Positions 26,553 through 42,739 of a DNA stretch of 64,000 nucleotides are shown piece by piece (the stretch's first letter is position 1; every line of letters starts with the position of its first letter). Made by a program: the position numbers and the translations under genes. The stretch is taken from assembly GCA_903907995.1 (NCBI GenBank), contig CAIVQH010000008.1, positions 7,220 to 71,219 on the forward strand. Reading direction: 5' to 3'. The notes under the pieces are model-generated. The model saw only the letters and a list, made by a program, of their open reading frames with translations, did no database searches and was not told the origin of the DNA. The stretch comes from an uncultured Verrucomicrobiota bacterium. GTDB taxonomy: Bacteria > Verrucomicrobiota > Verrucomicrobiia > Limisphaerales > UBA9464.

Positions 26553-29500
26553 TCAGGGTGCCACGATGGCCCGGTAGAAACGCGGGGTGTTGTCGGTGGA
26601 GTTGGGGTCCGTAACCGTGAAGGTTCCCAGCTCGTTCAGAACGGTGCTGATCGGCGACCAACCCTTGAGGTTGCTGGAATACTGGATGACGTAAGACTGG
26701 TTGACTTGGCCTTGCACTTGAATCTTCGCGTTCCCACCCGTGAAGCCAAGGAACTTGACGACGGCTTTGGAGGTATCATCCGTCGGCGGGCGCAGGTGCA
26801 GCTGGACATTGTCCAGCCAGGCGGTGTCCTGGCCGCTGGAGCGGCCGGCATCCTTCACATAACGCCATTCAAAGTCGTTTGAACCTGCCGGTATGGCAAA
26901 GGTAAACGTGCTCCAATCGACCTCACCGGACCAGCGCTGAACCAGCGACCCGTTAAGATAGAACTCCAGATAGTCCCAGCCATTCTCCGAGCTGACCTTG
27001 TATTGGAACGCGCCCTGGCCGCCCAGAGAATCGCCCTGCAAGCTGAGTGAGCTGACCTGGCTGTCGCCGATCGTGCCGGCCTTGGCGGCAAAGGTGCCGC
27101 TTGCAACCGTGTTGCTTTGCACCGCCCAAGGAACGTCACCACCGGAAACCCACTTCACATGCGTAAGATCGCCGGTTTCGAAATCATCCGTGAAGGGGAT
27201 GGCGACGAAATTGGCCGTGAGAGTCATGTTGCTGCTGACCAGGAAGCTGAGCGGATTGTCAGTGCTGGTCACCGAACCGCTCCATCCGCCAAAACTGAAG
27301 TAGGTGTTGGCCGTCGCGGTAAGATTCACTGGCGCATTGCTGGCAAACAGTCCGCCAGCGGAACTCACCGTGCCACCTACGCCGGCATTGACGGTGAGCG
27401 TGAACAGCGTCGCCGGCGCGAACGAATACGTCAGCGACACTTGGCCAACGGCACCAGCGAACCCATCCACCGCGATGTGGACGGTCTGGCCGCTCTTGAT
27501 TGGCACGCTGGCCACGCTGAAGGAGGAACTCGGGTAGGCATCGTCATTTGATGCGAGCGTGGTCAGGCTGCTCACCTTGGACCCGCTGTACACACCCAAC
27601 AGGGTATCAATCACCGAATTGGTCGTGCTGAGGGTCAGAACCCCGTCGGAGGTCGCGGTGTAGTTCCACCAGATTGAATGCCCGCCCAGGCTGCCACCAT
27701 GCAGCGGTTCGCCGAATTCACGGCTGGCCTGGGTATTGTCACCGGTGACGGTACCTCCGGCCCCTGAAAGCGGCGTCGCATTCACAAACTGGTCATTGAC
27801 CGCCGAAGGCAGACGCAGCGAAATCGTCAGGCTTGCAGGCGAAGACACATTCTCCGCATTGTCCTGCGCCACCGCCGTCACCGTGTTCAGCCCTGGTGAC
27901 AACGAAATCGTTGCGGACCAGGTGTTGCCCGCCAGTGTCGCACTCGAGCCGTTCACCAACACCTGCCGGACACCGGTCGGGTACGGATCAGGATCGCTGA
28001 CAATCCCACTGACAGTGATGACATTTGAGCTCGCGATGAAGCCATTGGCCGGAGCAGTAAAGGAAATCTGCGGGGCAACGACATCGGGGATGCCGTTGGG
28101 CGTCAGGCGCAGCAGGGCCTGTCCTTTTCCGGAAGTCCCCACGCCGATGACGGCAATGCGATAGGTTGTTCCCTTCGTGGCGTTGAAAGTCAGCGAAGTG
28201 CTTGATTTCGGCAGGACCGGCACGGCACTGCTGACGAGGTTCAAATTGAGGAAACTGGTGCCGGTATATACCGCAAGGGCTACGGGCGTCGCCGTGCCAA
28301 AGGTGTCCAGCAGTACCGGCGAGGAGACATTCGGCGTCCAGGCAAACCAGAGCGAGCCGACACCGTCGGGCGCTCCGGAGACTACTGGCTCGCCCGGTTC
28401 AAACGTGCTCAGGGTGGTGTCCGTACTGTCCACGCCGGCGATCAGTTCCCCATCGGTGGCGATCTTCCGCGGTGCGGCAAACCGGTCGTTGGCAGGACGA
28501 GCGACCACGGTGTAATTGACCACGTTGGTTGCGCCGGTTTTCCCCGGTGCGGTCGCGCTGATGACAAACTGATAGCTGCCGACATCCTGCGGGTTGAAGT
28601 TGGCGCTGTAGGTGCCGTCCAAGGCGACGGCATCGGGCATGACACCGTCGTTCGTGAATGACAGCGATACATTGGTCAGCCAGGGTCCGTTGATGATCGC
28701 CGTGACCGTCGCATTCGTCAGCGGGAAGAGATCGGTCACCGTGACGAATATCGGCGTCGTGTTGGTGACCAACACCTTCGAACCGTCCGGGGGAGCCACC
28801 ACCAAGGGATCGATGATGTTATCAATGTCACCATTGACTGCCCGGAAGGCGTTGACCCGGCCGCCGGTGATGGTTTGCCCCTTCAGGGCTGCAGTTGTTA
28901 CTGCGGAATTCAGCAGTCGCAGCCGGAGCTCGGGCATGCTGGCCGTCGGATGCTTGGCGAGCACAAGCGCGGCCACACCCGTCACATGGGGACAGGCCAT
29001 GCTGGTTCCCTCGAAGACATCGTAGGCGGTGTCCGATGTGCTGATTGAGGAAAAGATTTCAACGCCCGGAGCCCCTAGATGGACCGTCCTCAGGCCGTAG
29101 TTTGAAAAACTCGCCAGATGGTCTTTCCGGTCGATGGCGGCGACGACAACCATGTTGTCGAGCGCATAGCTGGCGGGCGCCACGAAGGTGATCCCGTTGT
29201 CATCACCAACCCCGTCGGCCCCGCCATTTCCTGCCGCGGCGACGAAAAGATGCCCCGAATCACGGGCGAAGGCGAGCGCGTCGGCAAGGGCCGGATCCGC
29301 GCCGCTTCCGCCCCAACTGTTGTTCGAAATGGGGACCTTCATGCGCACCGCATATTGGATGCACTCGATCGCATCCGAGGTGAATCCGGAGCCGTCCGAT
29401 CCGAGAAACTTCAGCCCCATCAGCGAAACCTGCCACGACACACCGACATGAGGCTGTCCATTGTTGGCCACCGCCCCGATCGTGCCGGACACATGGGTGC

Positions 29501-30224
29501 CGTGCTCGCCATCGTCAAACGGGTCACCAGAGCCGGTGATGGAGTTGATGCCGTGAACGTCATCCACATAGCCGTTGCCGTCATCGTCAATGCCGTTCCC
29601 CGGAATTTCACCGGGATTGGTCCAGATGTTGTCCGCCAGATCCACATGCGTATAGCGGATGCCCGTATCGATCACGGCCACGACGACCGACTTTGAACCG
29701 GTCGTGAGGTCCCAGGCACGCTCTGCATCGATATCGGCACCGGCGGTCCCGCCCTGCTGCCCGGTGTTCCTCAGTCCCCACAGCGTTCCATCCGTGAAGC
29801 GCAGGTCGTTGGGGGTCAGCTGCGCCGTAAGGACGTAGTCCGGCTCGACGTAGGCAAACTGTCCGGAATCGCGGAGAACCTGCATGCGGGCCTCCAGCAT
29901 TTGCGCACGCGTCTCCGGCGTCACGATGGAGGCCAGACCGAAGGCGTCCTTGGGCTCATCCAGCACCAAGAGTCCGGGCACAAATGACAGGTCTTTACGG
30001 ACCTCCAGACCGGCAGCAGAGGCCAGCGCCTTGGCGGCCGGCCTGGTGCTGAGAGCCTGGACGGCCGAAGCGGACGCATCCTGCAGCCTCACAATGATGC
30101 GCGTGGCATGTGCCTTGCGGCCGCCAATCTCGATGATGTTAGCCCCTTCCTGTGCCTGGAGGAGGCCACACAGAAGAAGACTGCCGGCGGCAAAGGCCCA
30201 AAGTCGCTTGCAAAGCATAATCAA
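26553..30224 (-). CDS. S8 (subtilisin) family serine protease, 1223 aa, multi-domain, with the [FY][FY]R C-terminal module
   Basis: Signal peptide and an I9-like propeptide. Catalytic triad motifs VAVIDTGI, HGTHVSGTIGA and GTSMACPHVTG. A long Ig-like/beta-sandwich region follows. Tail ...SYVIQYSSNLKGWSP...PRFYRAIVAP. Confidence 0.9.
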   Translation of the reverse strand: MIMLCKRLWAFAAGSLLLCGLLQAQEGANIIEIGGRKAHATRIIVRLQDASASAVQALSTRPAAKALASAAGLEVRKDLSFVPGLLVLDEPKDAFGLASIVTPETRAQMLEARMQVLRDSGQFAYVEPDYVLTAQLTPNDLRFTDGTLWGLRNTGQQGGTAGADIDAERAWDLTTGSKSVVVAVIDTGIRYTHVDLADNIWTNPGEIPGNGIDDDGNGYVDDVHGINSITGSGDPFDDGEHGTHVSGTIGAVANNGQPHVGVSWQVSLMGLKFLGSDGSGFTSDAIECIQYAVRMKVPISNNSWGGSGADPALADALAFARDSGHLFVAAAGNGGADGVGDDNGITFVAPASYALDNMVVVAAIDRKDHLASFSNYGLRTVHLGAPGVEIFSSISTSDTAYDVFEGTSMACPHVTGVAALVLAKHPTASMPELRLRLLNSAVTTAALKGQTITGGRVNAFRAVNGDIDNIIDPLVVAPPDGSKVLVTNTTPIFVTVTDLFPLTNATVTAIINGPWLTNVSLSFTNDGVMPDAVALDGTYSANFNPQDVGSYQFVISATAPGKTGATNVVNYTVVARPANDRFAAPRKIATDGELIAGVDSTDTTLSTFEPGEPVVSGAPDGVGSLWFAWTPNVSSPVLLDTFGTATPVALAVYTGTSFLNLNLVSSAVPVLPKSSTSLTFNATKGTTYRIAVIGVGTSGKGQALLRLTPNGIPDVVAPQISFTAPANGFIASSNVITVSGIVSDPDPYPTGVRQVLVNGSSATLAGNTWSATISLSPGLNTVTAVAQDNAENVSSPASLTISLRLPSAVNDQFVNATPLSGAGGTVTGDNTQASREFGEPLHGGSLGGHSIWWNYTATSDGVLTLSTTNSVIDTLLGVYSGSKVSSLTTLASNDDAYPSSSFSVASVPIKSGQTVHIAVDGFAGAVGQVSLTYSFAPATLFTLTVNAGVGGTVSSAGGLFASNAPVNLTATANTYFSFGGWSGSVTSTDNPLSFLVSSNMTLTANFVAIPFTDDFETGDLTHVKWVSGGDVPWAVQSNTVASGTFAAKAGTIGDSQVSSLSLQGDSLGGQGAFQYKVSSENGWDYLEFYLNGSLVQRWSGEVDWSTFTFAIPAGSNDFEWRYVKDAGRSSGQDTAWLDNVQLHLRPPTDDTSKAVVKFLGFTGGNAKIQVQGQVNQSYVIQYSSNLKGWSPISTVLNELGTFTVTDPNSTDNTPRFYRAIVAP

Positions 30225-30246
30225 ATGGCGTCTGAAAAGATGAACC

Positions 30247-33156
30247 TCAGGGTTCGTAGGTCACGCGGTAATAGACCACCGGCTGGTCGGGATTCACTGG
30301 ATCGCTGGCAACCAGCGGGGCGGAGTCGGTGGAAGTGTTGCTCACCGTGGTCACCAGCACCCAAGTTGTGGGATTGAGCGAGCTGGTCTTTTCCACGCGA
30401 TAACTCGTCTGCGGGGCACCGGTCCAACTGATCTGGGTCGTGAGCGGCGGCACATTCACCACCGCAGTGGTGATCGGCACCCCACCGAACGGTTCCGGAT
30501 CAAACGCATTCGCGATGCCGTCGCTGTCCGAATCAATGACAGTGCTGTTGAAGACGTTGCGGTTCACCCGCACCGTTCTTCCATCGGCCAGGGCCACATC
30601 GATGCCGCTGAACGGTCCGGCAAAATTCCGGACCCATTTCAGATGGCCGTTGAGGGCGCCATCCAGCTGTTCGACCGGGATGTTCGAATCCGCAAAGTAG
30701 ATCGTGAAGTCGTCCGCGATCTGTATGAAGGAACTCATGTCCGCCGCAATCGGCGAGCTGAATTCAAGGAAGTCCACATACAGCGCTTTCCCGCCGTTGA
30801 TGCCGGCAATGTTGATCAGGCCGTTGATGTCGGAAATCAGGCTCAGCCGGCCGATCGCGGCATTGTTGGCGAAGCCTTCTTTGGTCGCTCCGAGATCCGC
30901 CGCCGGCCAAAGAATGTCGGCGGAACCATCCGTAGTCACACTGGCCTCAAAGGTGGTTCCCAACATGGTGGCGGTCGTGGGTTTGCTGCCCAGGGTGAAG
31001 CCTTGGACGCTCGCGATGCGGTTCGGGGCCCCCGCACCGGCATCGAGGAACGAATTGGCAATCTGCAACTGGATGCTGCGACCGGCGGTCAGGGTTGCTC
31101 CCTGCATCTTCAGATCAGAGGCCGTCAGATAAAGGTCGCCAAACGCAGTGATCTTGCTTCCGGTGCCGTCGAGCTGCACCGAGGTGGCGACAATGTCAAT
31201 CGGCCCGTTAAAGGTCTGGATTGTCCCTGCGTTGTAGAGGGTGGTCGCACCGATCGACATGGACAGCGACTCATTGGTGCCGGTGTTCACGAACGTATCA
31301 TACGGCGCCCGGTCCCGGCCAAAATTGGCCACTCCCTGAACCGCGAGGATGCCGTTGTTGGTCAGCCGGCGCAGTTCCGGAGCCGAGGCCGCATTCCAGA
31401 CCCCGCTGCCGATGTTGCCCACAAACAGTGTGCCATTGATTGTCAGGGAATCCGAATGAAGCTCGATCGTGCTGTCAATCAGCAGCTTGTCGGCAACCGT
31501 CGTGTTTGTCGCCACCGCCTTGAGTCCGCTCACCGACGTGACACCGTCATCGCTGCTGAGATCGGCGCTCACGAGCAGGACGTGATACATGGTCGTGAAG
31601 TTGGTGGTGACAACGTCCGTGTTGGTGGCTCCGGTGTTGGGATCCACGGTGTTGTTTGTCGTCAGCTGGTCGAACCCGTTCGTCCAGATTGCACTCCAGG
31701 CTTTGATGTCTCCGGAGGCGAAACGGATGATGGGCGCTCCTGCCAGGCCCTGGAGGATCAGATTGCCGTTGGTCGCTCCCAAATCGTAGAAGAGGTTGGG
31801 CACATCAACCACCAGGTTGGCGGAGCCGGTAAGGTTTTTGGTCTTGATGAAGGCCGCCCCGCCTGCACGTATCCGCGTGTTGTTCAGGTTCAGATTGTCG
31901 GCATTGATCTCCACCCGGCCGGCGTAATTCGTGAGGGCCACGTTGGCGCCATTCCCGGGAAGCTGAAGATTTGAGTTAACAAACGCCTCATAGGCAGAGA
32001 AAAACGGGGTTACCGTCGCATTGCTGAAGTTCATCCCGTTCGTGAACTGGGGCGACACGAACTGGGTAAATATGTTGCTCGAAATCAACGAATTTCCGGG
32101 GGCGCCACTCAAGCCGAAGCGCTCAATCCGGAAATTGGCCGGACGGAACGTGCCCAGCGTCAGCGAATTTGTGAGCAGGAAGAGATTGGTGTCGGCCGCA
32201 ACCAGCAGATTCGTGGCGGAGGCGAGTCGGTCAGTGAGAAAAATGGATCTCGATACGCGCTGCCGGGTGATCACGTTTGTATCAAACCCGCTGAACTTCG
32301 TGATGAAGGTATGAAACGGGTTGCCCTGTTCGGAACTGCGCCCGAAACTGACATCCACCGACACATTGGTCCTCGTGTTGGCCACAAAGACCACCTCGAT
32401 GATCTGGTTCGTAGGCCCCTTTGGATCCCCGAAGGAGTTTGTGTTCACGAACACCAGAGGAGCCGTCAGTGACATGCCGTCCGGAAACTGGCCAGGATCG
32501 ACGATATAGTCCGGCGTGGTCACCTGGACGCCGTTCGGCGCGTACTTGAAAAACTGGGTCGGATCCAGCGTGACGATGTTCGTGCCCCAGCTGATGTCGG
32601 TGACTGACTGCATCGGGGTGAAGTTTGTCCGGGTTTGGCTTCCGCCGCTCGCGTTCAGCCCATCGGAGAGTGTCCCCATGTCCAGCTTGCTGTTGGCCAG
32701 GTCAACATTCTGGCCGTTCAGCCGGATCAGGCCTTCAAGTGAGCCCACCAAATTGCCGCGGTTGACCAGGTTGGTGGCGCTGAGGGAAAGGAACGGCTCC
32801 CCGTCAATGAGGGCTCCCTGCAGGTTGTTGATCACGCTGGCAAAGCCCCGCGTGCCGGTCGTGCCATCGGTGTGATCCAGACGAAACCCGCCCAATGAGA
32901 AATAATTACCGGCACCGTCCGAGAACCCAAATGCCCCCATTGTGCCCGTATTGGTGAAATACAGGGTGTTTTGGGTGTCATAGGGCCGGCTTAGCCCATT
33001 GAAATTCATCGTGCCGCGGTTCAGGAACACACGGGCGTCAACCTGTACCGGGTCGCTTATCGAATCATCGTTGACGTACAGGTCCGCCGTCCCCCCAAAA
33101 CAGGCAAGCCCCGCCGCGAGCCAGCCGAATACTGCAAAAATGAGCCGTGTCTTCAT
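30247..33156 (-). CDS. large secreted beta-helix-like (adhesin-like) repeat protein, 969 aa, with the [FY][FY]R C-terminal module
   Basis: Signal peptide MKTRLIFAVFGWLAAGLACFGG. Irregular Asn/Gly/Thr-rich repeats (LNLNNTRIRAGGAAFIKTKNLTGSANLVV...). Tail ...TSYRVEKTSSLNPTTW...VVYYRVTYEP. Confidence 0.7.
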   Translation of the reverse strand: MKTRLIFAVFGWLAAGLACFGGTADLYVNDDSISDPVQVDARVFLNRGTMNFNGLSRPYDTQNTLYFTNTGTMGAFGFSDGAGNYFSLGGFRLDHTDGTTGTRGFASVINNLQGALIDGEPFLSLSATNLVNRGNLVGSLEGLIRLNGQNVDLANSKLDMGTLSDGLNASGGSQTRTNFTPMQSVTDISWGTNIVTLDPTQFFKYAPNGVQVTTPDYIVDPGQFPDGMSLTAPLVFVNTNSFGDPKGPTNQIIEVVFVANTRTNVSVDVSFGRSSEQGNPFHTFITKFSGFDTNVITRQRVSRSIFLTDRLASATNLLVAADTNLFLLTNSLTLGTFRPANFRIERFGLSGAPGNSLISSNIFTQFVSPQFTNGMNFSNATVTPFFSAYEAFVNSNLQLPGNGANVALTNYAGRVEINADNLNLNNTRIRAGGAAFIKTKNLTGSANLVVDVPNLFYDLGATNGNLILQGLAGAPIIRFASGDIKAWSAIWTNGFDQLTTNNTVDPNTGATNTDVVTTNFTTMYHVLLVSADLSSDDGVTSVSGLKAVATNTTVADKLLIDSTIELHSDSLTINGTLFVGNIGSGVWNAASAPELRRLTNNGILAVQGVANFGRDRAPYDTFVNTGTNESLSMSIGATTLYNAGTIQTFNGPIDIVATSVQLDGTGSKITAFGDLYLTASDLKMQGATLTAGRSIQLQIANSFLDAGAGAPNRIASVQGFTLGSKPTTATMLGTTFEASVTTDGSADILWPAADLGATKEGFANNAAIGRLSLISDINGLINIAGINGGKALYVDFLEFSSPIAADMSSFIQIADDFTIYFADSNIPVEQLDGALNGHLKWVRNFAGPFSGIDVALADGRTVRVNRNVFNSTVIDSDSDGIANAFDPEPFGGVPITTAVVNVPPLTTQISWTGAPQTSYRVEKTSSLNPTTWVLVTTVSNTSTDSAPLVASDPVNPDQPVVYYRVTYEP

Positions 33157-33179: not shown

Positions 33180-34631
33180 TTATCGACCGTTCAACACCAT
33201 CTGCTCGAGCGCCTGGACCGAGAGACCGTCAGGGAACAGCACCGGCGGGTTCGTCGAGCCGTCAAACGATCCCCATGAGAATCCACCGGATGCATCCGAT
33301 TCGCCAACCCCTTGTCCGCTGGGGGCGAAGTTGAGGAGATATCTCCCGGCGTTGCCAAAAACGTATTCCATCGGCAACTGTACTATCCCAGGACCATCCA
33401 CTTCACCATTGCCGGCCGTGGTGTTCAGGGTGGATTCGTTGATCAAATTGCGGGTATACTCATTGAGCCCCGGGTTGGGCGGGCCAACCCCGAGATCCGC
33501 CGCCCGGAAGATCAGATCCGGTCTGGTGATGAGCCGGGACACTTGCTGGCCGCGCACGATGCCATTGGTCACATAGCGGTCGGTCCAGGTAACCTGGTAG
33601 GGCACCCGGGTGGTCGTCAGCAAGGAGTCGTAATCAACCCGCTTAAAGGTGATCTTGCCGATCCCTGGGCGAAGTGCCGTCACCACCCGGGGAGCCACAT
33701 TGTTTGTAACTGTCGTGGTGCCGTTGGTAACCACCGTGATGGTCGTCACCGGCAGCCAGGGCGCCTCGCCGCTCCCACCTCCGCTGACCGCGCCGCCGCC
33801 ACCCGCGCCGGCAATCACGTCGGCCGCCAGCGGTTCGACCGCATAATTTTTGCTCTCATACAGATGGCGCAATCCGCCCGCGTCATCACGGGTCAGGGCG
33901 TTGAAAAACACCCCTGCACCGAGGTTCGCACCGTTTCCGTTGATAAATCCGCCGGCAAAGCCCATATAACCAGCCAAAGTGGTAATCCCATCGGCTGAAG
34001 GGTCCACCGGCACTTGTACCGCCTCCCAGGCATTCGGGTTCGCATAGATCTGCGTGATGACATACGTGTACAGGTCTCCGTTGATGAAAGAACTCGGATT
34101 CCGGGTTATGGGATCCCAGTTGCGCTGAATCACCGAGTAGATTGATGAAGGCTCCGCGACCGGCACGTACCGGGAACGAATGGTCCACACATAGCGTTCC
34201 GGAGCCGTCAGCCCCAGTTGCAGGAGCAGTACCCCAGCCGTTGCAGTTTTAACATCCAGCAGGCCGGCCGCCTCGGAAGTCCGGTTGATGCGCAGGGTCT
34301 TCAGGGGAAATTCGCTCAGATCGGGCGTCATGGCGTCCGCCGCCGGCAAATCATTGAACACTTGGATGGCCGCCTCGACCGCTGCGACGCCGTTGGTGCC
34401 GAAGTACTTCAGGAACGTGGCATCATACCCGTAGGTCAGGATCGGTACCGTCTGGCGATACCCTTCATTGATGTTCATCACCCCGTTTTGAGCGCCATCA
34501 CCCGGCAGATTGTAGCCGATTTCAAAGACTTGCCAGGTGGCATACGGCCCCACCAGGGAAAACGCCCCCACCCGGGCTGTGGAACACCAGAGCACCAAGG
34601 CAAGAAGTGAAGCGGAGAAAAAGCGTGACAT
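33180..34631 (-). CDS. secreted hypothetical protein, 483 aa, no recognised domain
   Basis: Signal peptide MSRFFSASLLALVLWCSTARVGA. It is tightly packed in the operon (8 nt and 23 nt gaps). It lacks the shared C-terminal module. Confidence 0.6.
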   Translation of the reverse strand: MSRFFSASLLALVLWCSTARVGAFSLVGPYATWQVFEIGYNLPGDGAQNGVMNINEGYRQTVPILTYGYDATFLKYFGTNGVAAVEAAIQVFNDLPAADAMTPDLSEFPLKTLRINRTSEAAGLLDVKTATAGVLLLQLGLTAPERYVWTIRSRYVPVAEPSSIYSVIQRNWDPITRNPSSFINGDLYTYVITQIYANPNAWEAVQVPVDPSADGITTLAGYMGFAGGFINGNGANLGAGVFFNALTRDDAGGLRHLYESKNYAVEPLAADVIAGAGGGGAVSGGGSGEAPWLPVTTITVVTNGTTTVTNNVAPRVVTALRPGIGKITFKRVDYDSLLTTTRVPYQVTWTDRYVTNGIVRGQQVSRLITRPDLIFRAADLGVGPPNPGLNEYTRNLINESTLNTTAGNGEVDGPGIVQLPMEYVFGNAGRYLLNFAPSGQGVGESDASGGFSWGSFDGSTNPPVLFPDGLSVQALEQMVLNGR

Positions 34632-34639
34632 AATCAGAT

Positions 34640-36145
34640 TCAGGGAAGGCTGATGATGCGGAAAAATCCGCCGGACTGGCTAATCGGTAGAGTGACGGAA
34701 CTGGTCGTTCCCAAAAGGGTCTGAGCCGCCGTGGAGGTTTCCCATGTCGACATGTTGTCGGAGTGCTGCACCTGGTAAGAGACTCCGCTCGCGGTCGGCC
34801 AGCTCAGCGTTACTGCGGAGAGTTTGCCGGATGCGTCCATCACTTTGGCCACGGAGCATTTGACCGCGACCGCACTGGCCGGGCGGGCAAATGTCCGGCT
34901 CACCAGATCGAAGCCGCTGGCCATCGACTTGAATGACGTCCAAGCGGCGAAAAAGCGAGAAGTCCCATCTGAAGCGACCGCCGGGTCCTTCTGCTGGCTG
35001 ATCACCGTCTGGTTCAGCCCGAACTCATCGTCGGTGGGCTCACCGCTGAAGGAGAGGTAACGCCCGAAGACACCTTCACGATAGCCATCCTGGTTCAGAC
35101 TGGTCCACACGGCCAAAATGACATCACCGGCGAGCGACAGCCTGGGCTCAATCTGGCTGTAAGGAAGATAGTAGTTCACGCGAACGGCAGGCTTGGCGGC
35201 CACAATGCCGTCGTCGAAGGCGTTGGCGTAGATGTCCCAGCTGTTCTGGGGCGCCGCCAGGTCGAATTCGGACCAGGCAGCAACGAAACCGCCCGTGGGC
35301 AGCCCGACCAAGGACGGGGACGAGCAGACATTCGTGCCGGTATTCAGGCGCATCTCGCCAGTCAGCGGGGATCCTGCCGCGCTGAAAGTCCGGGCGTACA
35401 CGTCGACGGAGTTTTGAAAACGCTGGTTTTCCGAAACCCAGCCCACCACAAAACCACCGCTGGCCAAGGCCGCCAGCGTTGACGCCCGCTGATTGTAGGC
35501 GGTGGTAAGGTTCGCCTGAGTCTGCGTGCCGATCTTCTCACCGGTGCTGCTGAACCTTTGCAGCTGCACGCCGAAAAGGCTCCCGTCGCTGCCAAAGCTG
35601 GACCAGGCGATCACCACGCTGTTGTCTGACAGGCAGACGACTGCCGGGCTCGTGTTCTGCACCGAACCGGCCGGGGCGACTTCCACGTCCTCACCGTTGA
35701 ACACCGGAGTCGAGCTGCTTCCTGACTTCAAGAAGCGGGCGAAAATCCCCTGTTTTCCCAAGGGTCCGCCGCGCCAGACGAACACGGCCCCACCATCTGC
35801 CAGCAGGCTGACCTTGGGCGCCTCATGGATTCCGTTGGTGTGGGAATTGATCCAGAAAGGCGGCAAGGCCCCCGTGAGATTGCGACCAATGCGGCGGGCA
35901 CGGATCGCTGCCCCGTCCCCGTTGCCGGAAGCGTCCTGCCACACGATGTAGCCCCCCTCGCTGCTGATGGCGATGGCTGGTGCCGTCTGATCCGCTCCCA
36001 GACTCCCGATGATCGGCGATTCACCGCCCTCGGGCTGGAAACCGGAGGCCGCACCCAGGTGAAAAACCGGCAGCAGGAACAGGCTGCCAATGAGTCGGCA
36101 GCACGCCTTTTGCAGCTTCAGTATGTTCAAACTCCGAAATGGCAT
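34640..36145 (-). CDS. secreted 7-bladed beta-propeller-like repeat protein, 501 aa, with the [FY][FY]R C-terminal module
   Basis: Seven repeats of about 45-50 aa of the form ..P.va.L..GGfVv.W.S...dgs...vf.r.f...G (e.g. ALASGGFVVGWVSENQ, LPTGGFVAAWSEFD, DVILAVWTSLNQDGYREGVFGRY). Tail ...VSYQVQHSDNMSTW...GGFFRIISLP. Confidence 0.7.
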   Translation of the reverse strand: MPFRSLNILKLQKACCRLIGSLFLLPVFHLGAASGFQPEGGESPIIGSLGADQTAPAIAISSEGGYIVWQDASGNGDGAAIRARRIGRNLTGALPPFWINSHTNGIHEAPKVSLLADGGAVFVWRGGPLGKQGIFARFLKSGSSSTPVFNGEDVEVAPAGSVQNTSPAVVCLSDNSVVIAWSSFGSDGSLFGVQLQRFSSTGEKIGTQTQANLTTAYNQRASTLAALASGGFVVGWVSENQRFQNSVDVYARTFSAAGSPLTGEMRLNTGTNVCSSPSLVGLPTGGFVAAWSEFDLAAPQNSWDIYANAFDDGIVAAKPAVRVNYYLPYSQIEPRLSLAGDVILAVWTSLNQDGYREGVFGRYLSFSGEPTDDEFGLNQTVISQQKDPAVASDGTSRFFAAWTSFKSMASGFDLVSRTFARPASAVAVKCSVAKVMDASGKLSAVTLSWPTASGVSYQVQHSDNMSTWETSTAAQTLLGTTSSVTLPISQSGGFFRIISLP

Positions 36146-36264
36146 AACGGTTGTCTACCCACAGTTTTCACGACCCCATTCAACTGGCATACCTAGGCCT
36201 CGAAGCCCGCGAAATCCAATCGAATGTGGAACTTTCTCTATCGCCGGTTCCTTAAAACCGTCAC

Positions 36265-39018
<2,754 letters not shown>

Positions 39019-39066: not shown

Positions 39067-39867
39067 TCAAGGCTGGCTGGTGAGCTTGATAACAGTGCGG
39101 ACTTGGTTAGGTGCCGAGACTACTACTTCATCTTTTGCTATGGCAACAATCTTGTAGCTCACACCAGCCAAGGACAGGTTTTCATCCTGCCGTTTCCCTG
39201 AAAATGTCTTATTGTCAACCTCATAGCGAAGATCGGCAGCATATGCGAGGCCATCTTTGGAATAAGGCTTGTCCTTGACTAAGGTCACCCGTTCCGAGCC
39301 CTGCAGGAGCTCGATCACCACGTCGGTGGGATTGTCCTTCGGGCCGTGAACTTCACGCAGGGCGAAGAGGTCGCCTTTGCCACCCACATCCAGACTGACG
39401 GTCATCGGACGCCGCTTGGCGGCCTGCCGTTCGTAGTCACGCACGACGACAAACTGGTAGTGGAAAGGATCTTCCGTGCCGGAAACTGCGGTGAACGTGA
39501 TCGTCAGGCTGAGGGGCTTGGTGGCGGCCAGAACCAGGCCACGCACACCCTTCTGACCGTTGTCGGCGACCGGAAAGATGGAACCGTTGGCCTTCCGCAC
39601 CCAGGGAACCGGATTGAAGGTCTTATGGTCTCCGGCAAGCATGACGGTGACCGGTTTGGAAAGATGATCCAGTGCGGCGACACCGCCGGAAAGATCGACA
39701 TCCTTCACCGTTTTTTTGCCGCCGCCGGCCACTTTGCGATCCAGTTTTTGCTGCAGCTCCTCCTTCTCCTTGCCGGCGAGCGTGGTCAGATAGAGTGAAA
39801 CGCCGGCCACCACCAGCAGCACCACCCCGAGAATGATCTTCTCGTAATTTTTCTTTAGAAATTGCAT
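39067..39867 (-). CDS. bitopic beta-rich protein in the PilP position (Amuc_1099-like, tentative)
   Basis: N-terminal TM helix IILGVVLLVVAGVSLYLTTL, a short coiled coil, then a beta-rich periplasmic domain. It lies between the PilO-position gene and the secretin. Confidence 0.6.
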   Translation of the reverse strand: MQFLKKNYEKIILGVVLLVVAGVSLYLTTLAGKEKEELQQKLDRKVAGGGKKTVKDVDLSGGVAALDHLSKPVTVMLAGDHKTFNPVPWVRKANGSIFPVADNGQKGVRGLVLAATKPLSLTITFTAVSGTEDPFHYQFVVVRDYERQAAKRRPMTVSLDVGGKGDLFALREVHGPKDNPTDVVIELLQGSERVTLVKDKPYSKDGLAYAADLRYEVDNKTFSGKRQDENLSLAGVSYKIVAIAKDEVVVSAPNQVRTVIKLTSQP

Positions 39868-39870
39868 GCG

Positions 39871-40872
39871 TCAGCGATTGGGGTTGGGTCGGGGCGCATT
39901 GCTGGCCGGAGCGGGGGCCGAGGGCATCAATTTCACCACTTCGAGGCCGAGCGTGATTTTCAGCGGCTTTTCATCCAGCACCGTCTCACCGACCCGGACG
40001 GTGGGTTGCGCGACGGGGACGGGCTGCTGGGCTGGCGCGCCATAACGCCCCCCTGACAGACCGTAACGGCGGGCCAGCGCGGGATCCATCCCGCCAAAAC
40101 CTTGATTCACGGCCGCTGGCGCGGCCACTGGCGTGGGCGTTTCCAGCGCGGTTCCGCGTTCCACGTTGACCGTCTTGATGACGTAATTCTGGGGGGCGGC
40201 GATCAGGCCGGTCAACACCGCGCCGAGTTCGGAGCTGAAACACTGGAAGGAAACCTCGTAAGGGTAGATCACCACGCCCGCCACCGTGTTCGTGGTCACC
40301 TTTTTGGAGAGCAGGTCCGTACTGCCGGGGGCCTCGTTGCTGCCCACTCCGGGGCGTTTCAAGGACACCAGCGAGTGAATTTTCGCCTCGAACAGGATAT
40401 GGCAGACATCCCCCAGGTCCCGCAGTTCCGTGACCAGGGGTGACAACGCGTTCTGGGCCAGCTGCAACTTTTTACGCTGTTCCGAAAACGTGAAGTCGTA
40501 TTTGTCCGGGAGGCGCACGCCGGAACGTTCGGCCTCGTGCTCCAGAGAACCAATCGTCTGCTCCAGGACAGTCTTGAAGGAAGCGTTGTCCAGACTTTCA
40601 GGTTTGGTCTCCTCGCTGAACTTCACCTTGGCCTGCTGCTTGAAATCGGCCACCCGTTTCTGCTGGGCGCGGATTTTTTCGACGTTCTCGTTGCTGGGAA
40701 ACGGGTCGTGATTGACCAGCTCGTCCAGCTTCTGATTCATCGTCTCCAGCTCGGTGCTCGCGGAGTCCGCCTGCGACATGCTTCCGAGCAGGTAGAACAC
40801 CCCGACGCCCAGCAGCGCCACGGCAACCGCAAGCCCGACCACGAACAACAAATTGCGTTTGATCCAGGCCAT
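39871..40872 (-). CDS. bitopic coiled-coil pilus-system protein in the PilO position (Amuc_1100-like, tentative)
   Basis: TM helix LLFVVGLAVAVALLGVGVFYLL and a coiled coil. Then YPYEVSFQCFSSELGAVLTGLIAAPQNYVIKTVNVERG, a Pro/Ala-rich linker, and a terminal KPLKITLGLEVVKL. The layout matches my recollection of Akkermansia Amuc_1100. Confidence 0.6.
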   Translation of the reverse strand: MAWIKRNLLFVVGLAVAVALLGVGVFYLLGSMSQADSASTELETMNQKLDELVNHDPFPSNENVEKIRAQQKRVADFKQQAKVKFSEETKPESLDNASFKTVLEQTIGSLEHEAERSGVRLPDKYDFTFSEQRKKLQLAQNALSPLVTELRDLGDVCHILFEAKIHSLVSLKRPGVGSNEAPGSTDLLSKKVTTNTVAGVVIYPYEVSFQCFSSELGAVLTGLIAAPQNYVIKTVNVERGTALETPTPVAAPAAVNQGFGGMDPALARRYGLSGGRYGAPAQQPVPVAQPTVRVGETVLDEKPLKITLGLEVVKLMPSAPAPASNAPRPNPNR

Positions 40873-40873
40873 A

Positions 40874-42739
40874 TCAGAGTTTGATCGGGCGCTTCAACTT
40901 GAGATTGAGCGGAAAGGTGAACGTCGTGGCATTGGCATCGGCCCGGTCCATGTTGCCGGAAAGCGAGGTTTCGCGGGGATCAAACAGCGGGCTTTCCTTG
41001 ACCTGGCGCTCCAGCTCATAGATCAGATCGTTGTTGGCGGTCTCATTCAGGTTGACCGCGCGGAAAGTCACTTTGACGACGGAAAGCTCGTTCGTTGAGT
41101 TGCCGCCCTTTGGCTTCGGACCGCCACCATCAGCACCCGGCTGCCCGCCAGGACCACCGCCATCGGGGGCGCCCCGGGGAACGAGGCCGTAGCGCTTGGC
41201 CAGAATCGGGTCCAACATGTACAAGCTGCGCGCCGTCGGGGCGGAAGATTCCTCCTCCGCCACATTGACCGTCGGTTCCGTGGAAAGGAGGGTGTCTATC
41301 CAGACCCCGACCGGCACGCTGTCCTTGGTATGCACGGAATCTTCCGTCTGTTTCAGGATACGCCGCAGTTCGACGAGGATATCGGCCCACTGGGTGCGCT
41401 GCTGCAGCCAGTCACTCATTTGCGTCGCCTCTTCGAGCTCACGCTTCAGGCGGGCCTCTTCCGCTTCCAGCTTGGTCTTGGCCTGGTCAAAGGGATCAAC
41501 CTTCTGCTTGATCTGGCCCACCCCGTAGCTCCGGGCATCCGCCACCTTGGAGTAGTACCAACCGGTCGCGAAGACACCGGCGGTCAGCACAAAGGCGGCC
41601 GCCAGCAGATAGGGTTTTTTGGAGTTGAACTCCTGCCGGGACAGCGAGGCCTTGGGAATGAGGTTCAGCTCCACCGGGCACTGCACCACGTTGCGCAGGC
41701 CCAGCCCGACGACTTCACCGAAGCACTGCGCGTACTTTTCCAGCTCGGCCACGTCCACGGCCGGATCGATCTCGACATTGCGGAACGGGTTCAGGAAGTC
41801 CACCGGCAGGTTCAGCTTCTCCTGGAAGAACTGCGAGGCGTACGGCATGATCGAGCCGCCGCCGCACAGGAACACCCGGACCGGCGCCGAACCGCCCTGC
41901 TGGGTGCGATAAAACTGGATCGTCTGGTTGACCTGCAGGTGCAGGCGGGTGAGCACGTTCCGGGCAACCTTGGAAACGGCCGCCTGCTTCGGATCATCAG
42001 GCTCCTCGTAGGCGCCACCCAGGCTGACAAAGCCCTCGGCCAGCTTGAACTTCTCGGCGTCGTCGAAACGAAGCTTGGCCTCGGCGGCAAATTCCTGGGT
42101 GATGGCGTTGGCCCCCACGTTGACCGAGCGGGCGTAGTACTTGTTGGCCTCGAAGAGCAGCACGTTGCTGGTCTTCGCGCCGATGTCGATCAGCAGGCTG
42201 CAGCCCTCCTGATCGGCGTAATTGTAGCGGAACGAGTTGGCCAGCGCGCCGATCGAGGAATCCACGATCGACATCTTCAGCCCGGCAACCTCGCCGATGG
42301 AGAACAGCTTCTCCACCGTCTCCGACTTGATCGCGACGAGCAGCACTTCCAGCTCGCCGCCCGGGGCGGAACCGAGGATCTGGTAGTCCCACGCCGTCTC
42401 GGCCAGCGGGAAGGGCACGTTCTGCTGCGCCTCGTACTGGATGATCTGGGTGACCTTGGAGGTGTCAACCGGAGGTAGTTTGACGAACTTGGAGAAAACC
42501 TGGAAGCCGGGGGCCGTCAGGTTGCCTTCCTTCGCCAAGAACCCGCCTTCGGCGAGCAGCTCGGGCAGCGCCTTTTTCAGGGCGCCCTCGCGGGCGGCGT
42601 CCTGCGAACCGGCCAGGCCCAGCGGCTTCACGCCGAAGCGGAGCAGGCGCAGACCTTCCTGCGGGGTGACCGCAAACTCGGCGATTTTGAGGCTTCCCGC
42701 CCCAAAATCGATCCCAAGAAATGTCTTCGACTTCAGCAT
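40874..42739 (-). CDS. PilM-like actin-fold ATPase fused to a PilN-like TM/coiled-coil region (Amuc_1101-like)
   Basis: The N-terminus FLGIDFGAGSLKIAEF... and ...LLIDIGAKTSNVLLFE... are PilM/FtsA-like. Then the TM helix YLLAAAFVLTAGVFATGWYY and the coiled coil KTKLEAEEARLKRELEEATQMSDWLQQR. Confidence 0.85.
   Translation of the reverse strand: MLKSKTFLGIDFGAGSLKIAEFAVTPQEGLRLLRFGVKPLGLAGSQDAAREGALKKALPELLAEGGFLAKEGNLTAPGFQVFSKFVKLPPVDTSKVTQIIQYEAQQNVPFPLAETAWDYQILGSAPGGELEVLLVAIKSETVEKLFSIGEVAGLKMSIVDSSIGALANSFRYNYADQEGCSLLIDIGAKTSNVLLFEANKYYARSVNVGANAITQEFAAEAKLRFDDAEKFKLAEGFVSLGGAYEEPDDPKQAAVSKVARNVLTRLHLQVNQTIQFYRTQQGGSAPVRVFLCGGGSIMPYASQFFQEKLNLPVDFLNPFRNVEIDPAVDVAELEKYAQCFGEVVGLGLRNVVQCPVELNLIPKASLSRQEFNSKKPYLLAAAFVLTAGVFATGWYYSKVADARSYGVGQIKQKVDPFDQAKTKLEAEEARLKRELEEATQMSDWLQQRTQWADILVELRRILKQTEDSVHTKDSVPVGVWIDTLLSTEPTVNVAEEESSAPTARSLYMLDPILAKRYGLVPRGAPDGGGPGGQPGADGGGPKPKGGNSTNELSVVKVTFRAVNLNETANNDLIYELERQVKESPLFDPRETSLSGNMDRADANATTFTFPLNLKLKRPIKL

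What the first reader, a model, noticed from the sequence alone, without database searches (positions are those of the whole stretch)
26553..42739. PilM/N - PilO-like - PilP-like - secretin module co-transcribed with four giant exoproteins; no ATPase, platform or pilin nearby
Eight minus-strand ORFs run head to tail from 42739 to 26553. The gaps are 1, 3, 48, 119, 8, 23 and 22 nt. An AT-rich leader lies upstream (42740-42923) and a perfect bidirectional terminator lies downstream (26495-26531). This reads as one transcription unit of about 16 kb. Genes 1-4 follow the pilMNOPQ order: a PilM actin fold fused to a TM helix and coiled coil (621 aa), a bitopic coiled-coil protein (333 aa), a bitopic beta-rich protein (266 aa), and a TPR + poly-Gly + secretin protein (917 aa). 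From memory, this is the layout of the Akkermansia muciniphila Amuc_1101-1100-1099-1098 cluster, whose mechanistic role is unresolved. Two things are unusual here. First, no extension or retraction ATPase, platform protein, prepilin peptidase or major pilin lies in or beside the operon. Second, the secretin is followed directly by four large signal-peptide proteins: a 7-blade propeller (501 aa), an orphan (483 aa), a beta-helix protein (969 aa) and an S8 protease (1223 aa). Three of these end in the shared C-terminal module reported separately. My hypothesis is a secretin-based outer-membrane export or display route with its cargo encoded in cis, rather than a classical pilus.
Basis: partly seen in the sequence, partly recalled or inferred. 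Interest (0 to 1): 0.85.

Follow-up and report, generated by a model that had tools for sequence, protein, structure and literature searches.

The report
Verrucomicrobial secretin module with conserved partner trio
This is a relative of the Akkermansia "MUL2" pilus-like envelope machine (PilM, Amuc_1100-like protein, small membrane protein, secretin) that, across a whole order of Verrucomicrobiota, is always followed by the same three uncharacterised secreted proteins, which are therefore the best candidates for the unknown working parts or clients of this machine.

Summary
The eight minus-strand genes, their gaps and the 17-bp bidirectional terminator are exactly as described. Genes 1-4 are homologs of Akkermansia Amuc_1101/1100/(1099)/1098, the "MUL2" type IV pilus-like locus, which is now linked to mucin acquisition, so its role is no longer fully unresolved. 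Three results are new. (1) g5 (7-blade propeller), g6 (confident model, no structural neighbour) and g7 (about 950-aa beta-solenoid) follow the secretin, same order and strand, in 66/66, 61/61 and 58/58 related species-level genomes with enough contig, down to 39% secretin identity, and in three contigs anchored on g6. They are conserved partners, not variable cargo. (2) Only the eighth position is variable: S8 protease (13/53), M36 protease, giant adhesin-like proteins, or nothing. (3) No Amuc_1102-type pilin gene is present. The missing ATPase and platform are normal for pilMNOPQ-type operons, and a GspG-like prepilin gene lies 1.6 kb upstream, so "not a pilus" is not supported. The shared C-terminal module is a generic Fn3-like domain (at least 2,574 protein clusters, often tandem), not a dedicated tag. 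Verdict: a new variant of a known system; "cargo in cis" is partly supported.

The parts
42740..42923 (-). Leader / probable promoter region upstream of g1, relatively AT-rich. It contains a direct repeat GCGGGCACT x2 followed by a T-run at about 42770-42798.
   Evidence: GC 0.52 vs 0.63 for the window; sequence read. No consensus sigma-70 site was called here; promoter function is inferred.
40874..42739 (-). g1, 621 aa: PilM actin-like domain (aa 9-350) fused to a hydrophobic helix (377-395), a charged helical segment and a C-terminal domain. This is a PilM-PilN-type fusion and an Amuc_1101 (MUL2B) homolog.
   Evidence: Pfam PilM_2 6.2e-34; NCBIfam Amuc_1101_fam 458 bits (cut-off 650); TIGR01175 pilM 142.5 bits (cut-off 133). 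Hydrophobic segment. Orthologs in 71+ loci, median 52% identity.
39871..40872 (-). g2, 333 aa: bitopic protein, Amuc_1100-family homolog (PilO/PilN-like by published structure of Amuc_1100).
   Evidence: NCBIfam Amuc_1100_fam E 5.5e-25, 88.5 bits over aa 1-317 (cut-off 180). Orthologs in related loci carry Pfam PF28028 Amuc_1100. N-terminal hydrophobic helix. The g1-g2 gap has a median of 1 nt in 71 loci.
39067..39867 (-). g3, 266 aa: bitopic, beta-rich protein in the PilP/GspC position. Its homology to Amuc_1099 is unproven.
   Evidence: NCBIfam Amuc_1099_fam only 18.7 bits, N-terminus only. No Pfam or PDB hit for 30 orthologs. Always present between g2 and the secretin.
36265..39018 (-). g4, 917 aa: signal peptide, TPR region (about 90-240), two poly-Gly tracts (426-438, 461-469), and a secretin domain (687-890). 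Amuc_1098-family secretin.
   Evidence: Pfam Secretin 2.9e-31 and TPR families; NCBIfam Amuc_1098_fam 351.5 bits (cut-off 750). 562+ homologs, all Verrucomicrobiota where named. At least 579 relatives among GTDB species genomes.
36146..36264 (-). g4-g5 intergenic gap (119 nt), the one loose junction of the unit.
   Evidence: No minus-strand terminator-like site. RNA fold z = -1.67, not significant. In relatives this junction exceeds 600 nt in 29/73 loci, from a 5'-3' exonuclease insertion (plus a prepilin gene in L023 and L070) or a split secretin.
34640..36145 (-). g5, 501 aa: signal peptide, 7-bladed beta-propeller (aa about 34-425, velcro closure), and an Fn3-like C-terminal module (about 425-501; nt 34643-34873).
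   Evidence: Repeat HMM finds 6 full blades plus one split blade; 56/68 g5 proteins give 7 hits. No Pfam, NCBIfam or PDB sequence hit to the propeller, including PilY1. Present in 66/66 loci.
33180..34631 (-). g6, 483 aa: signal peptide with an invariant mature N-terminus FSL(L/V)GP. Two-domain protein (alpha/beta domain 24-275, Gly-rich linker 277-312, beta domain 318-480) with no detectable structural or sequence relative outside its own family.
   Evidence: Family of at least 380 proteins, all 'hypothetical'. AF2 pLDDT 84.4, pTM 0.83. Foldseek PDB best E 0.039 with TM 0.07, and BFVD best E 0.29. Profile vs PDB finds nothing. Present in 61/61 loci, and the g5-g6 gap is 30 nt or less in 66/66.
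30247..33156 (-). g7, 969 aa: signal peptide, long beta-solenoid, and an Fn3-like C-terminal module (about 895-969; nt 30250-30474).
   Evidence: AF2 pLDDT 88.6, pTM 0.72, all-beta. Best, weak, Foldseek hits are beta-helical passenger or adhesin proteins: EspC E 4e-3, Hbp, EtpA, RsaA, pectinases. The C-terminus matches Fn3-type domains with probability up to 0.94. No Pfam hit in 30 orthologs. Present in 58/58 loci.
26553..30224 (-). g8, 1223 aa (probably 1221 from the ATG at 30218): signal peptide, subtilase S8 domain (178-443), two 'P-x-ND-x-F' domains (about 577-700, 805-935), Glucodextran_B, Flg_new_2, and an Fn3-like C-terminal module (nt 26556-26792). It occupies the variable eighth slot.
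   Evidence: Pfam Peptidase_S8 1.2e-51, Glucodextran_B, Flg_new_2. An S8 ortholog follows g7 in only 13/53 loci. The slot otherwise holds other large secreted proteins, an M36 protease (L082) or nothing.
26495..26531 (.). Bidirectional intrinsic terminator closing the unit. It is shared with the convergent phosphoribosyltransferase gene at 25904-26470.
   Evidence: 17-bp stem, 3-nt loop, A-run and T-run flanks.
44309..45148 (+). Context, not part of the operon: divergent prepilin-type (GspG-like N-terminus, H-X9-DG C-terminus) gene 1.57 kb upstream.
   Evidence: Pfam N_methyl; NCBIfam gspG 2.7e-07, IV_pilin_GFxxxE, pre_pil_HX9DG. Sequence [15 protein letters not shown]. Conserved at this position only in the nearest relatives L001-L004. 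Prepilin-like genes occur in 9/81 loci.

Best explanation
This is the Limisphaerales/Pedosphaerales version of the verrucomicrobial MUL2 (Amuc_1098-1101) type IV pilus-like envelope machine, extended by a fixed trio of secreted partner proteins.

Shown: g1-g4 encode a cytoplasmic PilM domain fused to a membrane-spanning PilN-like tail, an Amuc_1100-type bitopic protein, a third bitopic protein and a TPR-secretin. Together these are the parts of an inner-membrane-to-outer-membrane alignment complex and channel.

Inferred from how PilM-type systems work: the motor ATPase, platform protein, prepilin peptidase and prepilin-type subunits are supplied in trans from other loci. This is the usual arrangement for pilMNOPQ operons, and prepilin-type genes are scattered through this window.

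Shown: g5 (7-blade propeller), g6 (orphan fold) and g7 (long beta-solenoid) are Sec-exported, are inherited with the secretin without exception across the lineage, are tightly packed with one another, and diverge much faster than g1-g4.

Inferred: g5-g7 are extracytoplasmic partners that reach the cell surface by way of, or assemble on, this secretin. There they form its adhesive or substrate-capturing end, taking the place that the Amuc_1102 pilin-like protein holds in Akkermansiaceae.

Shown: the eighth gene is exchangeable, and it is often a large secreted protease of one catalytic class or another.

Inferred: that slot holds true client or cargo enzymes. The overall role is capture and processing of extracellular macromolecules (proteins or glycoproteins), by analogy with the reported role of MUL2 in mucin acquisition.
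For: Homology of g1, g2 and g4 to the Amuc families and to PilM and Secretin; orthologs of g2 carry PF28028 Amuc_1100.

Perfect colinearity of g1-g7 in 57 loci carrying all seven; g5 in 66/66, g6 in 61/61 and g7 in 58/58 loci with room, down to 39% secretin identity. The same order is seen when anchoring on g7 or on g6.

g5-g7 stay attached even where a 5'-3' exonuclease gene has been inserted after the secretin. Junctions are tight: g5-g6 median 7 nt, g6-g7 median 25 nt.

All have signal-peptide-like N-termini. In the nearest relative L001, g1-g4 are 92-97% identical but g5-g7 only 65-74%. Identity of g5-g7 tracks secretin identity only weakly (rho 0.10-0.34, vs 0.69-0.77 for g1-g3), as expected for exposed proteins.

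The g7 fold class matches secreted beta-helical adhesins and passengers. Slot 8 holds an S8 protease here, and in L082 an M36 protease with the same Glucodextran_B and Flg_new_2 accessory domains.

coaE follows the module in many loci, and dephospho-CoA kinase is among the neighbours drawn beside the Akkermansiaceae MUL2 locus. This is consistent with an extension inside an old locus.

MUL2 is reported as a T4P-like system important for mucin acquisition. No Amuc_1102-like gene lies upstream of g1 in any locus.
Against: There is no direct evidence that g5-g7 touch or cross the secretin; synteny shows a functional link, not its nature. The g4-g5 junction is the loosest in the unit (119 nt here; more than 600 nt in 29/73 loci), so g5-g7 may be a separately regulated sub-operon.

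No ATPase, platform or peptidase could be shown for this genome; only about 84 kb of a 205-kb contig was seen. g5 shows no sequence similarity to the PilY1 propeller. g6 has no informative relative at all.

The Fn3-like C-terminal module is generic. Its presence on Kelch and TSP3 proteins elsewhere in the window could mean g5 and g7 use a general surface-display route unrelated to this secretin.

The macromolecule-foraging role is an analogy to Akkermansia, read from secondary sources, because the primary paper was not available.
Confidence: 0.5

Rival explanations
1. One reading: a pilus-independent, secretin-only export or display route in which g5-g8 are all cargo encoded in cis, and no ATPase, platform or pilin takes part.
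For: No ATPase, platform or peptidase in about 84 kb. A PilT-like ATPase is near the module in only 3/81 loci and prepilin-like genes in 9/81. No Amuc_1102-like gene. All four downstream proteins have signal peptides.
Against: g1 keeps a full PilM domain (TIGR01175 above its cut-off). In characterised systems PilM is the cytoplasmic docking ring for the motor and platform (established knowledge), and a passive channel would have no use for it. pilMNOPQ operons normally lack ATPase and pilin genes. Prepilin-type genes are present in the window. g5-g7 are invariant rather than exchangeable.
Confidence: 0.12
2. g5-g7 are periplasmic or outer-membrane-associated accessory parts of the machine (gating, plugging, anchoring to the wall or stabilising the secretin), not exported proteins.
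For: The invariant presence and fixed order resemble structural subunits more than clients. There is precedent for periplasmic secretin-binding proteins (SlkA/SlkB plugs of PilQ). g6 lacks the Fn3-like C-terminal module.
Against: They are very large (about 480-970 aa; in relatives up to 1,400) and length-variable. They diverge far faster than g1-g4. g7 has the fold class of secreted fibres and adhesins. g5 and g7 share their terminal module with other obviously extracytoplasmic multi-domain proteins.
Confidence: 0.15
3. g5-g7(-g8) form an independent operon for surface or secreted proteins that merely sits next to the secretin module and uses another export route.
For: The g4-g5 junction is loose and tolerates insertion of a housekeeping gene. 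The terminal module is generic and present on unlinked proteins.
Against: Neighbourhood retained in 58/58 species-level genomes, at protein identities down to 24-40%, and across an insertion event, is very hard to explain without selection for linkage. No g6 or g7 homolog was seen in any other context.
Confidence: 0.07

Closest known systems
Akkermansia muciniphila MUL2 locus (Amuc_1098-Amuc_1102), a type IV pilus-like system
   Same: Same gene order PilM-fusion / Amuc_1100-like / small bitopic protein / TPR-secretin. g1, g2 and g4 hit the NCBIfam Amuc_1101, 1100 and 1098 models best. The phylum is the same. A dephospho-CoA kinase gene follows the module in many relatives and is among the neighbours drawn beside the Akkermansiaceae locus.
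   Different: All four proteins score below the NCBIfam equivalog cut-offs, and g3 is barely detectable. There is no Amuc_1102 (MUL2A, pilin-like) gene. Three extra conserved genes (g5-g7) plus a variable eighth lie between the secretin and the housekeeping neighbour. They are not mentioned in the papers read, whose survey covered Verrucomicrobiales, Chthoniobacterales and Methylacidiphilales but not this order.
Type IVa pilus PilMNOPQ alignment and secretin subcomplex (Pseudomonas, Myxococcus, Neisseria)
   Same: PilM domain, bitopic partners, a secretin last in the operon, and ATPase, platform and pilin genes encoded elsewhere (established knowledge). The TPR region fused to the secretin resembles the PilF/PilW/Tgl pilotins (weak NCBIfam hits).
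   Different: PilM and the PilN-like part are fused. g3 is not a lipoprotein and has no PilP signal. The secretin has poly-Gly tracts and scores far below the PilQ cut-off. No canonical pilMNOPQ operon continues into three large secreted proteins.
Type II secretion systems with a substrate encoded beside the machine (for example pullulanase next to the pul genes; own knowledge)
   Same: A secretin plus a Sec-exported hydrolase encoded in cis. The variable eighth slot (S8, M36 proteases) fits this pattern.
   Different: No GspC/E/F/G-M genes in the unit. GspD model 161.9 bits against a cut-off of 351. g5-g7 are invariant, unlike typical substrates.
PilY1/PilC-type pilus tip adhesins (beta-propeller) and beta-helical secreted adhesins (SPATE passengers EspC/Hbp, TpsA EtpA)
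   Same: g5 is a 7-blade propeller. g7 is a long beta-solenoid whose nearest structural class is these adhesins and passengers. A capture or adhesion role at the end of a pilus-like machine is the analogy.
   Different: No sequence similarity of g5 to PilY1. Foldseek matches for g7 are not significant (best E 4e-3, TM 0.15). No autotransporter barrel or TPS domain. g5 was not modelled.
SlkA/SlkB secretin plug proteins of Pseudomonas aeruginosa
   Same: Sec-exported proteins that act on a T4P secretin without being pilins.
   Different: Slk proteins are reported as periplasmic plugs; no similarity was tested or seen, and they are not encoded in the pilMNOPQ operon (own knowledge). g5-g7 are large, multi-domain and fast-evolving.

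Membership tests
MUL2 / Amuc_1098-1102 locus | Amuc_1101-type PilM protein with C-terminal membrane extension | tested here: met
   NF045709 E 5e-137, 458 bits over aa 1-465 (below the equivalog cut-off of 650). Pfam PilM_2 117.9 bits (cut-off 27). TIGR01175 142.5 bits (cut-off 133). Homolog, not equivalog.
MUL2 / Amuc_1098-1102 locus | Amuc_1100-family bitopic protein | tested here: met
   NF038287 E 5.5e-25, 88.5 bits, full length (cut-off 180). Orthologs annotated PF28028 Amuc_1100. The ortholog profile did not retrieve any PDB chain, so the relationship is distant.
MUL2 / Amuc_1098-1102 locus | Amuc_1099-family protein | tested here: inconclusive
   NF042425 18.7 bits, E 1.1e-3, N-terminal 50 residues only. 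No Pfam or PDB signal in 30 orthologs. Only its position and topology agree.
MUL2 / Amuc_1098-1102 locus | Amuc_1098-family TPR-secretin | tested here: met
   NF042912 E 8.9e-105, 351.5 bits (cut-off 750); Pfam Secretin 108.8 bits. Homolog, not equivalog.
MUL2 / Amuc_1098-1102 locus | Amuc_1102 (MUL2A) pilin-like gene directly upstream of the PilM gene | tested here: not met
   Upstream of g1 is a HAD-methyltransferase here. In relatives it is HAD-methyltransferase or sugar transferase plus epimerase genes. No NCBIfam pilus-family hit among the unannotated small window proteins. A copy elsewhere in the genome cannot be excluded.
MUL2 / Amuc_1098-1102 locus | Required for uptake or acquisition of a complex glycoprotein or glycan | not testable with these tools
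   Genetic and physiological property, known only for Akkermansia from the literature.
Type IVa pilus machine (PilMNOPQ + PilB/C/D/T + pilins) | PilM, PilN, PilO, PilP and PilQ equivalents in one operon | tested here: inconclusive
   PilM and the secretin are met. A PilN-like tail is fused to PilM (topology only). g2 is PilO/N-like only through the published Amuc_1100 structure. g3 has no PilP evidence.
Type IVa pilus machine (PilMNOPQ + PilB/C/D/T + pilins) | Extension ATPase, platform protein and prepilin peptidase in the genome | not testable with these tools
   None in the window plus or minus 10 kb. PilT-like genes occur near the module in L009, L010 and L064.
Type IVa pilus machine (PilMNOPQ + PilB/C/D/T + pilins) | Prepilin-type subunits with the G|F-x-x-x-E N-terminus | tested here: met
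   44309-45148 and 9326-10207 match IV_pilin_GFxxxE above its cut-off and have GspG/GspH-like N-termini. Whether they use this secretin is unknown.
Type II secretion system | GspD-type secretin with GspC, E, F, G-K, L, M genes | tested here: not met
   GspD model 161.9 bits vs a cut-off of 351. No other Gsp gene in the unit or window.

The most novel reading that the evidence does not exclude
g5-g7 are the extracellular working end of a secretin machine that does not use a pilin fibre for this purpose. On this reading a propeller, an orphan-fold protein and a beta-solenoid, all Sec-exported, are threaded through or assembled on the secretin. There they form a capture device that, with exchangeable cis-encoded proteases, feeds macromolecules back through the same channel into the periplasm. 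This would be a verrucomicrobial 'selfish uptake' organelle, of which Akkermansia MUL2 would be a reduced, Amuc_1102-based version. It would amount to a new class of secretin-dependent surface structure and would name the missing parts of MUL2-type uptake.
Probability: 0.18. Interest if true: 0.85.

Novelty: new variant of a known kind. Interest (0 to 1): 0.62.

Why it matters
The Amuc_1098-1102 (MUL2) system is among the most studied and least understood features of Akkermansia. Its proteins are abundant, immunologically active and reported as needed for mucin acquisition, yet what the machine moves or displays is not known.

This window shows that in a large sister lineage of soil and freshwater Verrucomicrobiota the same core machine is locked to three uncharacterised secreted proteins and often to a secreted protease. 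That gives concrete, testable candidates for partners or substrates. It also defines two protein families with confident models but no known relatives or annotation (g6, at least 380 members; g7). It shows that the pilin-like Amuc_1102 is not a universal part of the system. And it offers a cultured organism, Pedosphaera parvula, in which to test the idea.

Tried and rejected
1. Profile searches of g2, g3, g5 and g6 ortholog alignments against all PDB sequences. Nothing useful came back except Fn3 in long g5 forms.

2. Pfam scans of 30 g3 and 30 g7 orthologs. No family was found.

3. g6 as a degenerate metzincin. Foldseek gave only 40-residue echoes of MMP domains at probability below 0.2, and no His or HExxH is conserved among 50 family members. 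Rejected.

4. g5 as a PilY1 homolog. No Pfam or PDB sequence signal. It remains only a functional analogy.

5. The C-terminal module as a dedicated sorting tag for this secretin. Rejected as evidence: it ends three unlinked window proteins, and it occurs in at least 2,574 protein clusters, often in tandem and internally.

6. A structured RNA or terminator in the g4-g5 gap. None was found.

7. An Amuc_1102-like gene upstream of g1 or among unannotated window proteins. None was found.

8. The primary MUL2 paper (Davey 2023) and the 2025 review were not held, so MUL2 function is cited from secondary sources.

9. Walking beyond the window for ATPase genes. Only plus or minus 10 kb is reachable, and nothing was found.

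Full report
**1. The observation**

Codon-position GC (third position 0.66-0.83, second position 0.37-0.52) shows that all eight are real coding regions.

- **Terminator and leader.** The downstream terminator at 26495-26531 has a 17-bp stem with a 3-nt loop between an A-run and a T-run. The 184-nt leader has GC 0.52 against 0.63 for the window.
- **g1.** It carries a full PilM_2 domain (aa 9-350, E 6e-34), then a hydrophobic helix (377-395) and a charged helical stretch.
- **g2 and g3.** Each has one N-terminal hydrophobic helix.
- **g4.** It has TPR repeats, two poly-Gly tracts and a Secretin domain.
- **g5-g8.** They start with signal-peptide-like segments.
- **g8.** It is a subtilase with Glucodextran_B and Flg_new_2 domains. 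Its true start is probably the ATG at 30218, as in its orthologs.
- **Missing machinery.** No T2SS/T4P ATPase, platform protein or prepilin peptidase is encoded in the 64-kb window or within 10 kb beyond either edge.

One correction is needed. A prepilin-type gene with a GspG-like N-terminus ([15 protein letters not shown]) and an H-X9-DG C-terminus lies at 44309-45148, 1.57 kb upstream and divergent. Two more prepilin-like genes lie at 9326-10207 and 46584-47540. "No pilin nearby" is therefore not strictly true.

**2. What genes 1-4 are**

The NCBIfam models Amuc_1101_fam (458 bits), Amuc_1100_fam (88.5 bits, full length) and Amuc_1098_fam (351.5 bits) are the best hits for g1, g2 and g4. Amuc_1099_fam touches only the N-terminus of g3 (18.7 bits). 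All four are below the equivalog cut-offs.

The secretin has more than 560 close homologs. All of those that carry names come from Verrucomicrobiota, including Pedosphaera parvula and Limisphaerales. At least 579 relatives exist among GTDB species-representative genomes. The nearest, at 95% identity, is the MAG YR3_bin-1454.

The literature now calls Amuc_1098-1102 the MUL2 locus. It is described as a type IV pilus-like system important for mucin acquisition. Amuc_1100 is PilO/PilN-like in structure, and Amuc_1102 (MUL2A) resembles an archaeal type IV pilin. The role of the cluster is therefore no longer wholly unresolved. The published survey of MUL2 outside Akkermansiaceae covered Verrucomicrobiales, Chthoniobacterales and Methylacidiphilales only, and it does not discuss genes beyond the secretin.

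**3. The key test: synteny**

I fetched 80 loci anchored on the secretin with 10-kb flanks and searched them with the window's proteins.

- **g1-g7.** They are colinear on one strand wherever the contig allows. g5 is present in 66 of 66 loci with at least 2.5 kb downstream, g6 in 61 of 61, and g7 in 58 of 58. 57 loci carry all seven genes. This holds down to 39% secretin identity and 24-31% identity for g5-g7.
- **Reverse test.** It agrees. The contig of the most distant g7 homolog (25% identity) and three contigs chosen through g6 homologs all show PilM / Amuc_1100 (PF28028) / a protein of about 265 aa / secretin / g5-like / g6 / g7-like.
- **Junction spacing.** Junctions inside g1-g3 and g5-g7 are tight (medians 1, 4, 7 and 25 nt). 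The g4-g5 junction is the loose one, with a median of 158 nt and more than 600 nt in 29 of 73 loci.
- **Why the g4-g5 junction is loose.** In about twenty loci a 5'-3' exonuclease gene has been inserted there. Twice a prepilin-type gene accompanies it. In several loci the secretin is split into two ORFs. g5-g7 nevertheless stay attached.
- **g8.** It behaves differently. An S8 protease follows g7 in 13 of 53 loci. Elsewhere the slot holds other large secreted proteins that share g8's P-x-ND-x-F domain, an M36 metalloprotease with the same Glucodextran_B and Flg_new_2 domains, giant Calx-beta/DUF5122 proteins, or nothing.
- **Outer boundary.** Where nothing follows g7, the next gene is often dephospho-CoA kinase, which is among the neighbours drawn beside the Akkermansiaceae MUL2 locus.
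- **Upstream of g1.** No Amuc_1102-like gene lies there in any locus. A NCBIfam scan of ten other window proteins, including seven without any Pfam match, found no other pilus-type family.

**4. What g5-g7 are**

- **g5** is a seven-bladed propeller. It has six full repeats of about 56 aa plus a seventh split between the two ends, and 56 of 68 g5 proteins give seven repeat hits. No Pfam, NCBIfam or PDB sequence match was found, and none to PilY1.
- **g6** belongs to a family of at least 380 proteins, all unnamed.
  - Its AlphaFold model is confident (pLDDT 84, pTM 0.83).
  - It has no structural neighbour in the PDB or in the viral library (best E 0.039 at TM 0.07, and E 0.29).
  - The mature N-terminus FSL(L/V)GP and a TRDD motif are nearly invariant.
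  - No histidine is conserved, which rules out the faint metzincin echo.
- **g7** models confidently (pLDDT 88.6) as a long all-beta solenoid.
  - Its nearest, statistically weak, neighbours are beta-helical passengers and adhesins: EspC, Hbp, EtpA, the RsaA S-layer protein and pectinases.
  - Its last 80 or so residues match Fn3-type sandwiches.
- **The C-terminal module** is shared by g5, g7 and g8.
  - It also ends three unlinked proteins in the window, two Kelch proteins and a TSP3-repeat protein.
  - A profile of it finds at least 2,574 protein clusters, often with many tandem and internal copies.
  - It is a generic Fn3-like module, not a dedicated tag.
- **Rate of divergence.** g5-g7 evolve much faster than the machine. 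Against the nearest relative, g1-g4 are 92-97% identical but g5-g7 only 65-74%. Their divergence tracks that of the secretin only weakly. This is what one expects of exposed proteins.

**5. How it most likely works**

Shown:
- g1-g4 are homologs of the MUL2 core.
- g5-g7 are Sec-targeted, invariably linked to that core, tightly packed and fast-evolving.
- Slot 8 is exchangeable and often holds a protease.

Inferred:
- g1-g4 build the PilM/N-PilO-like-secretin conduit.
- The motor, platform and prepilin subunits act in trans, as in canonical pilMNOPQ operons (established knowledge).
- g5-g7 reach the surface through, or assemble on, the secretin and form an adhesive or capture end. They occupy the role that Amuc_1102 has in Akkermansiaceae.
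- Slot-8 enzymes are true clients.
- The overall role is foraging of extracellular macromolecules, by analogy with MUL2.

I put about 0.5 on this composite. Within it, I put about 0.9 on the identity of g1-g4, about 0.85 on a functional link to g5-g7, and about 0.4 on export or assembly through this secretin.

Rivals:
- A pilus-independent secretin-only route. This is weakened by the intact PilM domain and by the normality of trans-encoded motors.
- Periplasmic accessory or plug proteins. There is a precedent in SlkA/SlkB. This is weakened by the size, the length variation, the rate of divergence and the fold class of g7.
- Mere neighbourhood. This is very unlikely given 58 of 58 loci.

**6. 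Comparison, novelty and verdict**

The unit works like, and is homologous to, the MUL2 system, but it fails one defining feature (Amuc_1102) and scores below the equivalog thresholds. It shares the logic of pilMNOPQ operons. It is not a type II secretion system.

The conserved g5-g7 extension, the orphan g6 family and the variable protease slot are not described in the papers I could search. I therefore class it as a new variant of a known kind. It is of real interest to people working on Akkermansia and on macromolecule uptake in the PVC group, but it is not categorically new.

Noticed in passing
L061, L063, L067, L068, L072, L073, L080 (about 650-nt 'gap' after g4) and L082:3782-6856: In several relatives the secretin is split into two ORFs. 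The last 195 or so residues of the secretin domain are encoded separately and begin with their own signal peptide (e.g. MKTKLIILSLLIGALVPSLKAQVV...PFGQVLDVIPYVSADGYTIQ). A two-piece secretin would be unusual if both parts are made.
   Followed up: partly
About 20 loci, e.g. L030:12960-13886, L084:6613-7548; also L023:3680-4510 and L070:13621-14484: A 5'-3' exonuclease (Pol I N-terminal/FEN type, LIVDGHAYAYRAF) gene is inserted between the secretin and g5 on the same strand. In L023 and L070 a prepilin-type gene (GFTLIELLVVIAII) sits next to it, inside the module.
   Followed up: partly
window 10239-11567 (-), 12911-14065 (+), 14106-15533 (+): A TSP3-repeat protein and two near-duplicate Kelch-propeller proteins end in the same Fn3-like module as g5, g7 and g8 (...[FY][FY]R[AVI]...). 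The module occurs in at least 2,574 protein clusters, often in long tandem arrays.
   Followed up: partly
window 9326-10207 (+), 44309-45148 (+), 46584-47540 (-), 59690-60385 (+): Four members, or partial members, of the PVC-type prepilin / DUF1559 / H-X9-DG paralog family within 64 kb. This implies that a prepilin peptidase and an assembly system exist somewhere in this genome.
   Followed up: partly
window 18111-19055 (+), flanked by 16022-18064 (-) and 19943-20887 (+): An Hcp (type VI secretion tube) homolog with an N-terminal extension of about 40 aa and a C-terminal extension of about 140 aa lies between two BspA-type leucine-rich-repeat proteins. No other T6SS gene is in the window.
   Followed up: no
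window 19156-19929 (+) and 22604-24223 (-): A VTC-domain (polyphosphate-related) protein and a CotH kinase-like protein lie close together.
   Followed up: no
window 3-7554, and the 10 kb to the left of the window: Repeated pairs of planctomycete-type PSD/PSCyt multi-domain proteins (DUF1585/1587/1588/1592/1595) with DUF1552 (HXXSHH) partners, at least three pairs in a row. A MazE/PIN pair sits among them.
   Followed up: no
window 42770-42800 (-), leader of g1: Direct repeat GCGGGCACT N5 GCGGGCACT, followed immediately by a run of seven T, about 30 nt upstream of the g1 start. It is not a hairpin and could be a regulator binding site.
   Followed up: no
L019, L020, L021, L024, L032, L034, L038, L042, L043, L045, L052, L070, L071, L074, L075, L083: the 3 kb upstream of g1: In the more distant relatives the module is preceded on the same strand by a polyprenyl-phosphate sugar transferase-like gene (MLRRDRQIRMQ...) and an NAD-dependent epimerase/dehydratase. 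This is a recurrent link to envelope polysaccharide synthesis.
   Followed up: no
L064:4581-5669 (-); L009:21611-22672; L010:21007-22074: PilT-like ATPase genes lie next to the module in three of 81 loci. These are the only motor genes seen near any copy.
   Followed up: partly
window 36265-39018 (g4 aa 426-438 and 461-469) and alignment A1: Two poly-glycine tracts between the N-terminal domains and the secretin core are conserved across the whole secretin family (consensus of 15 or more G). This is an unusual feature for secretins.
   Followed up: no
window 55691-57625 (-), 644 aa: A large protein with strong coding signal (GC3 0.87) and no Pfam or NCBIfam match, next to a trypsin-like protease gene (57701-58705).
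   Followed up: no
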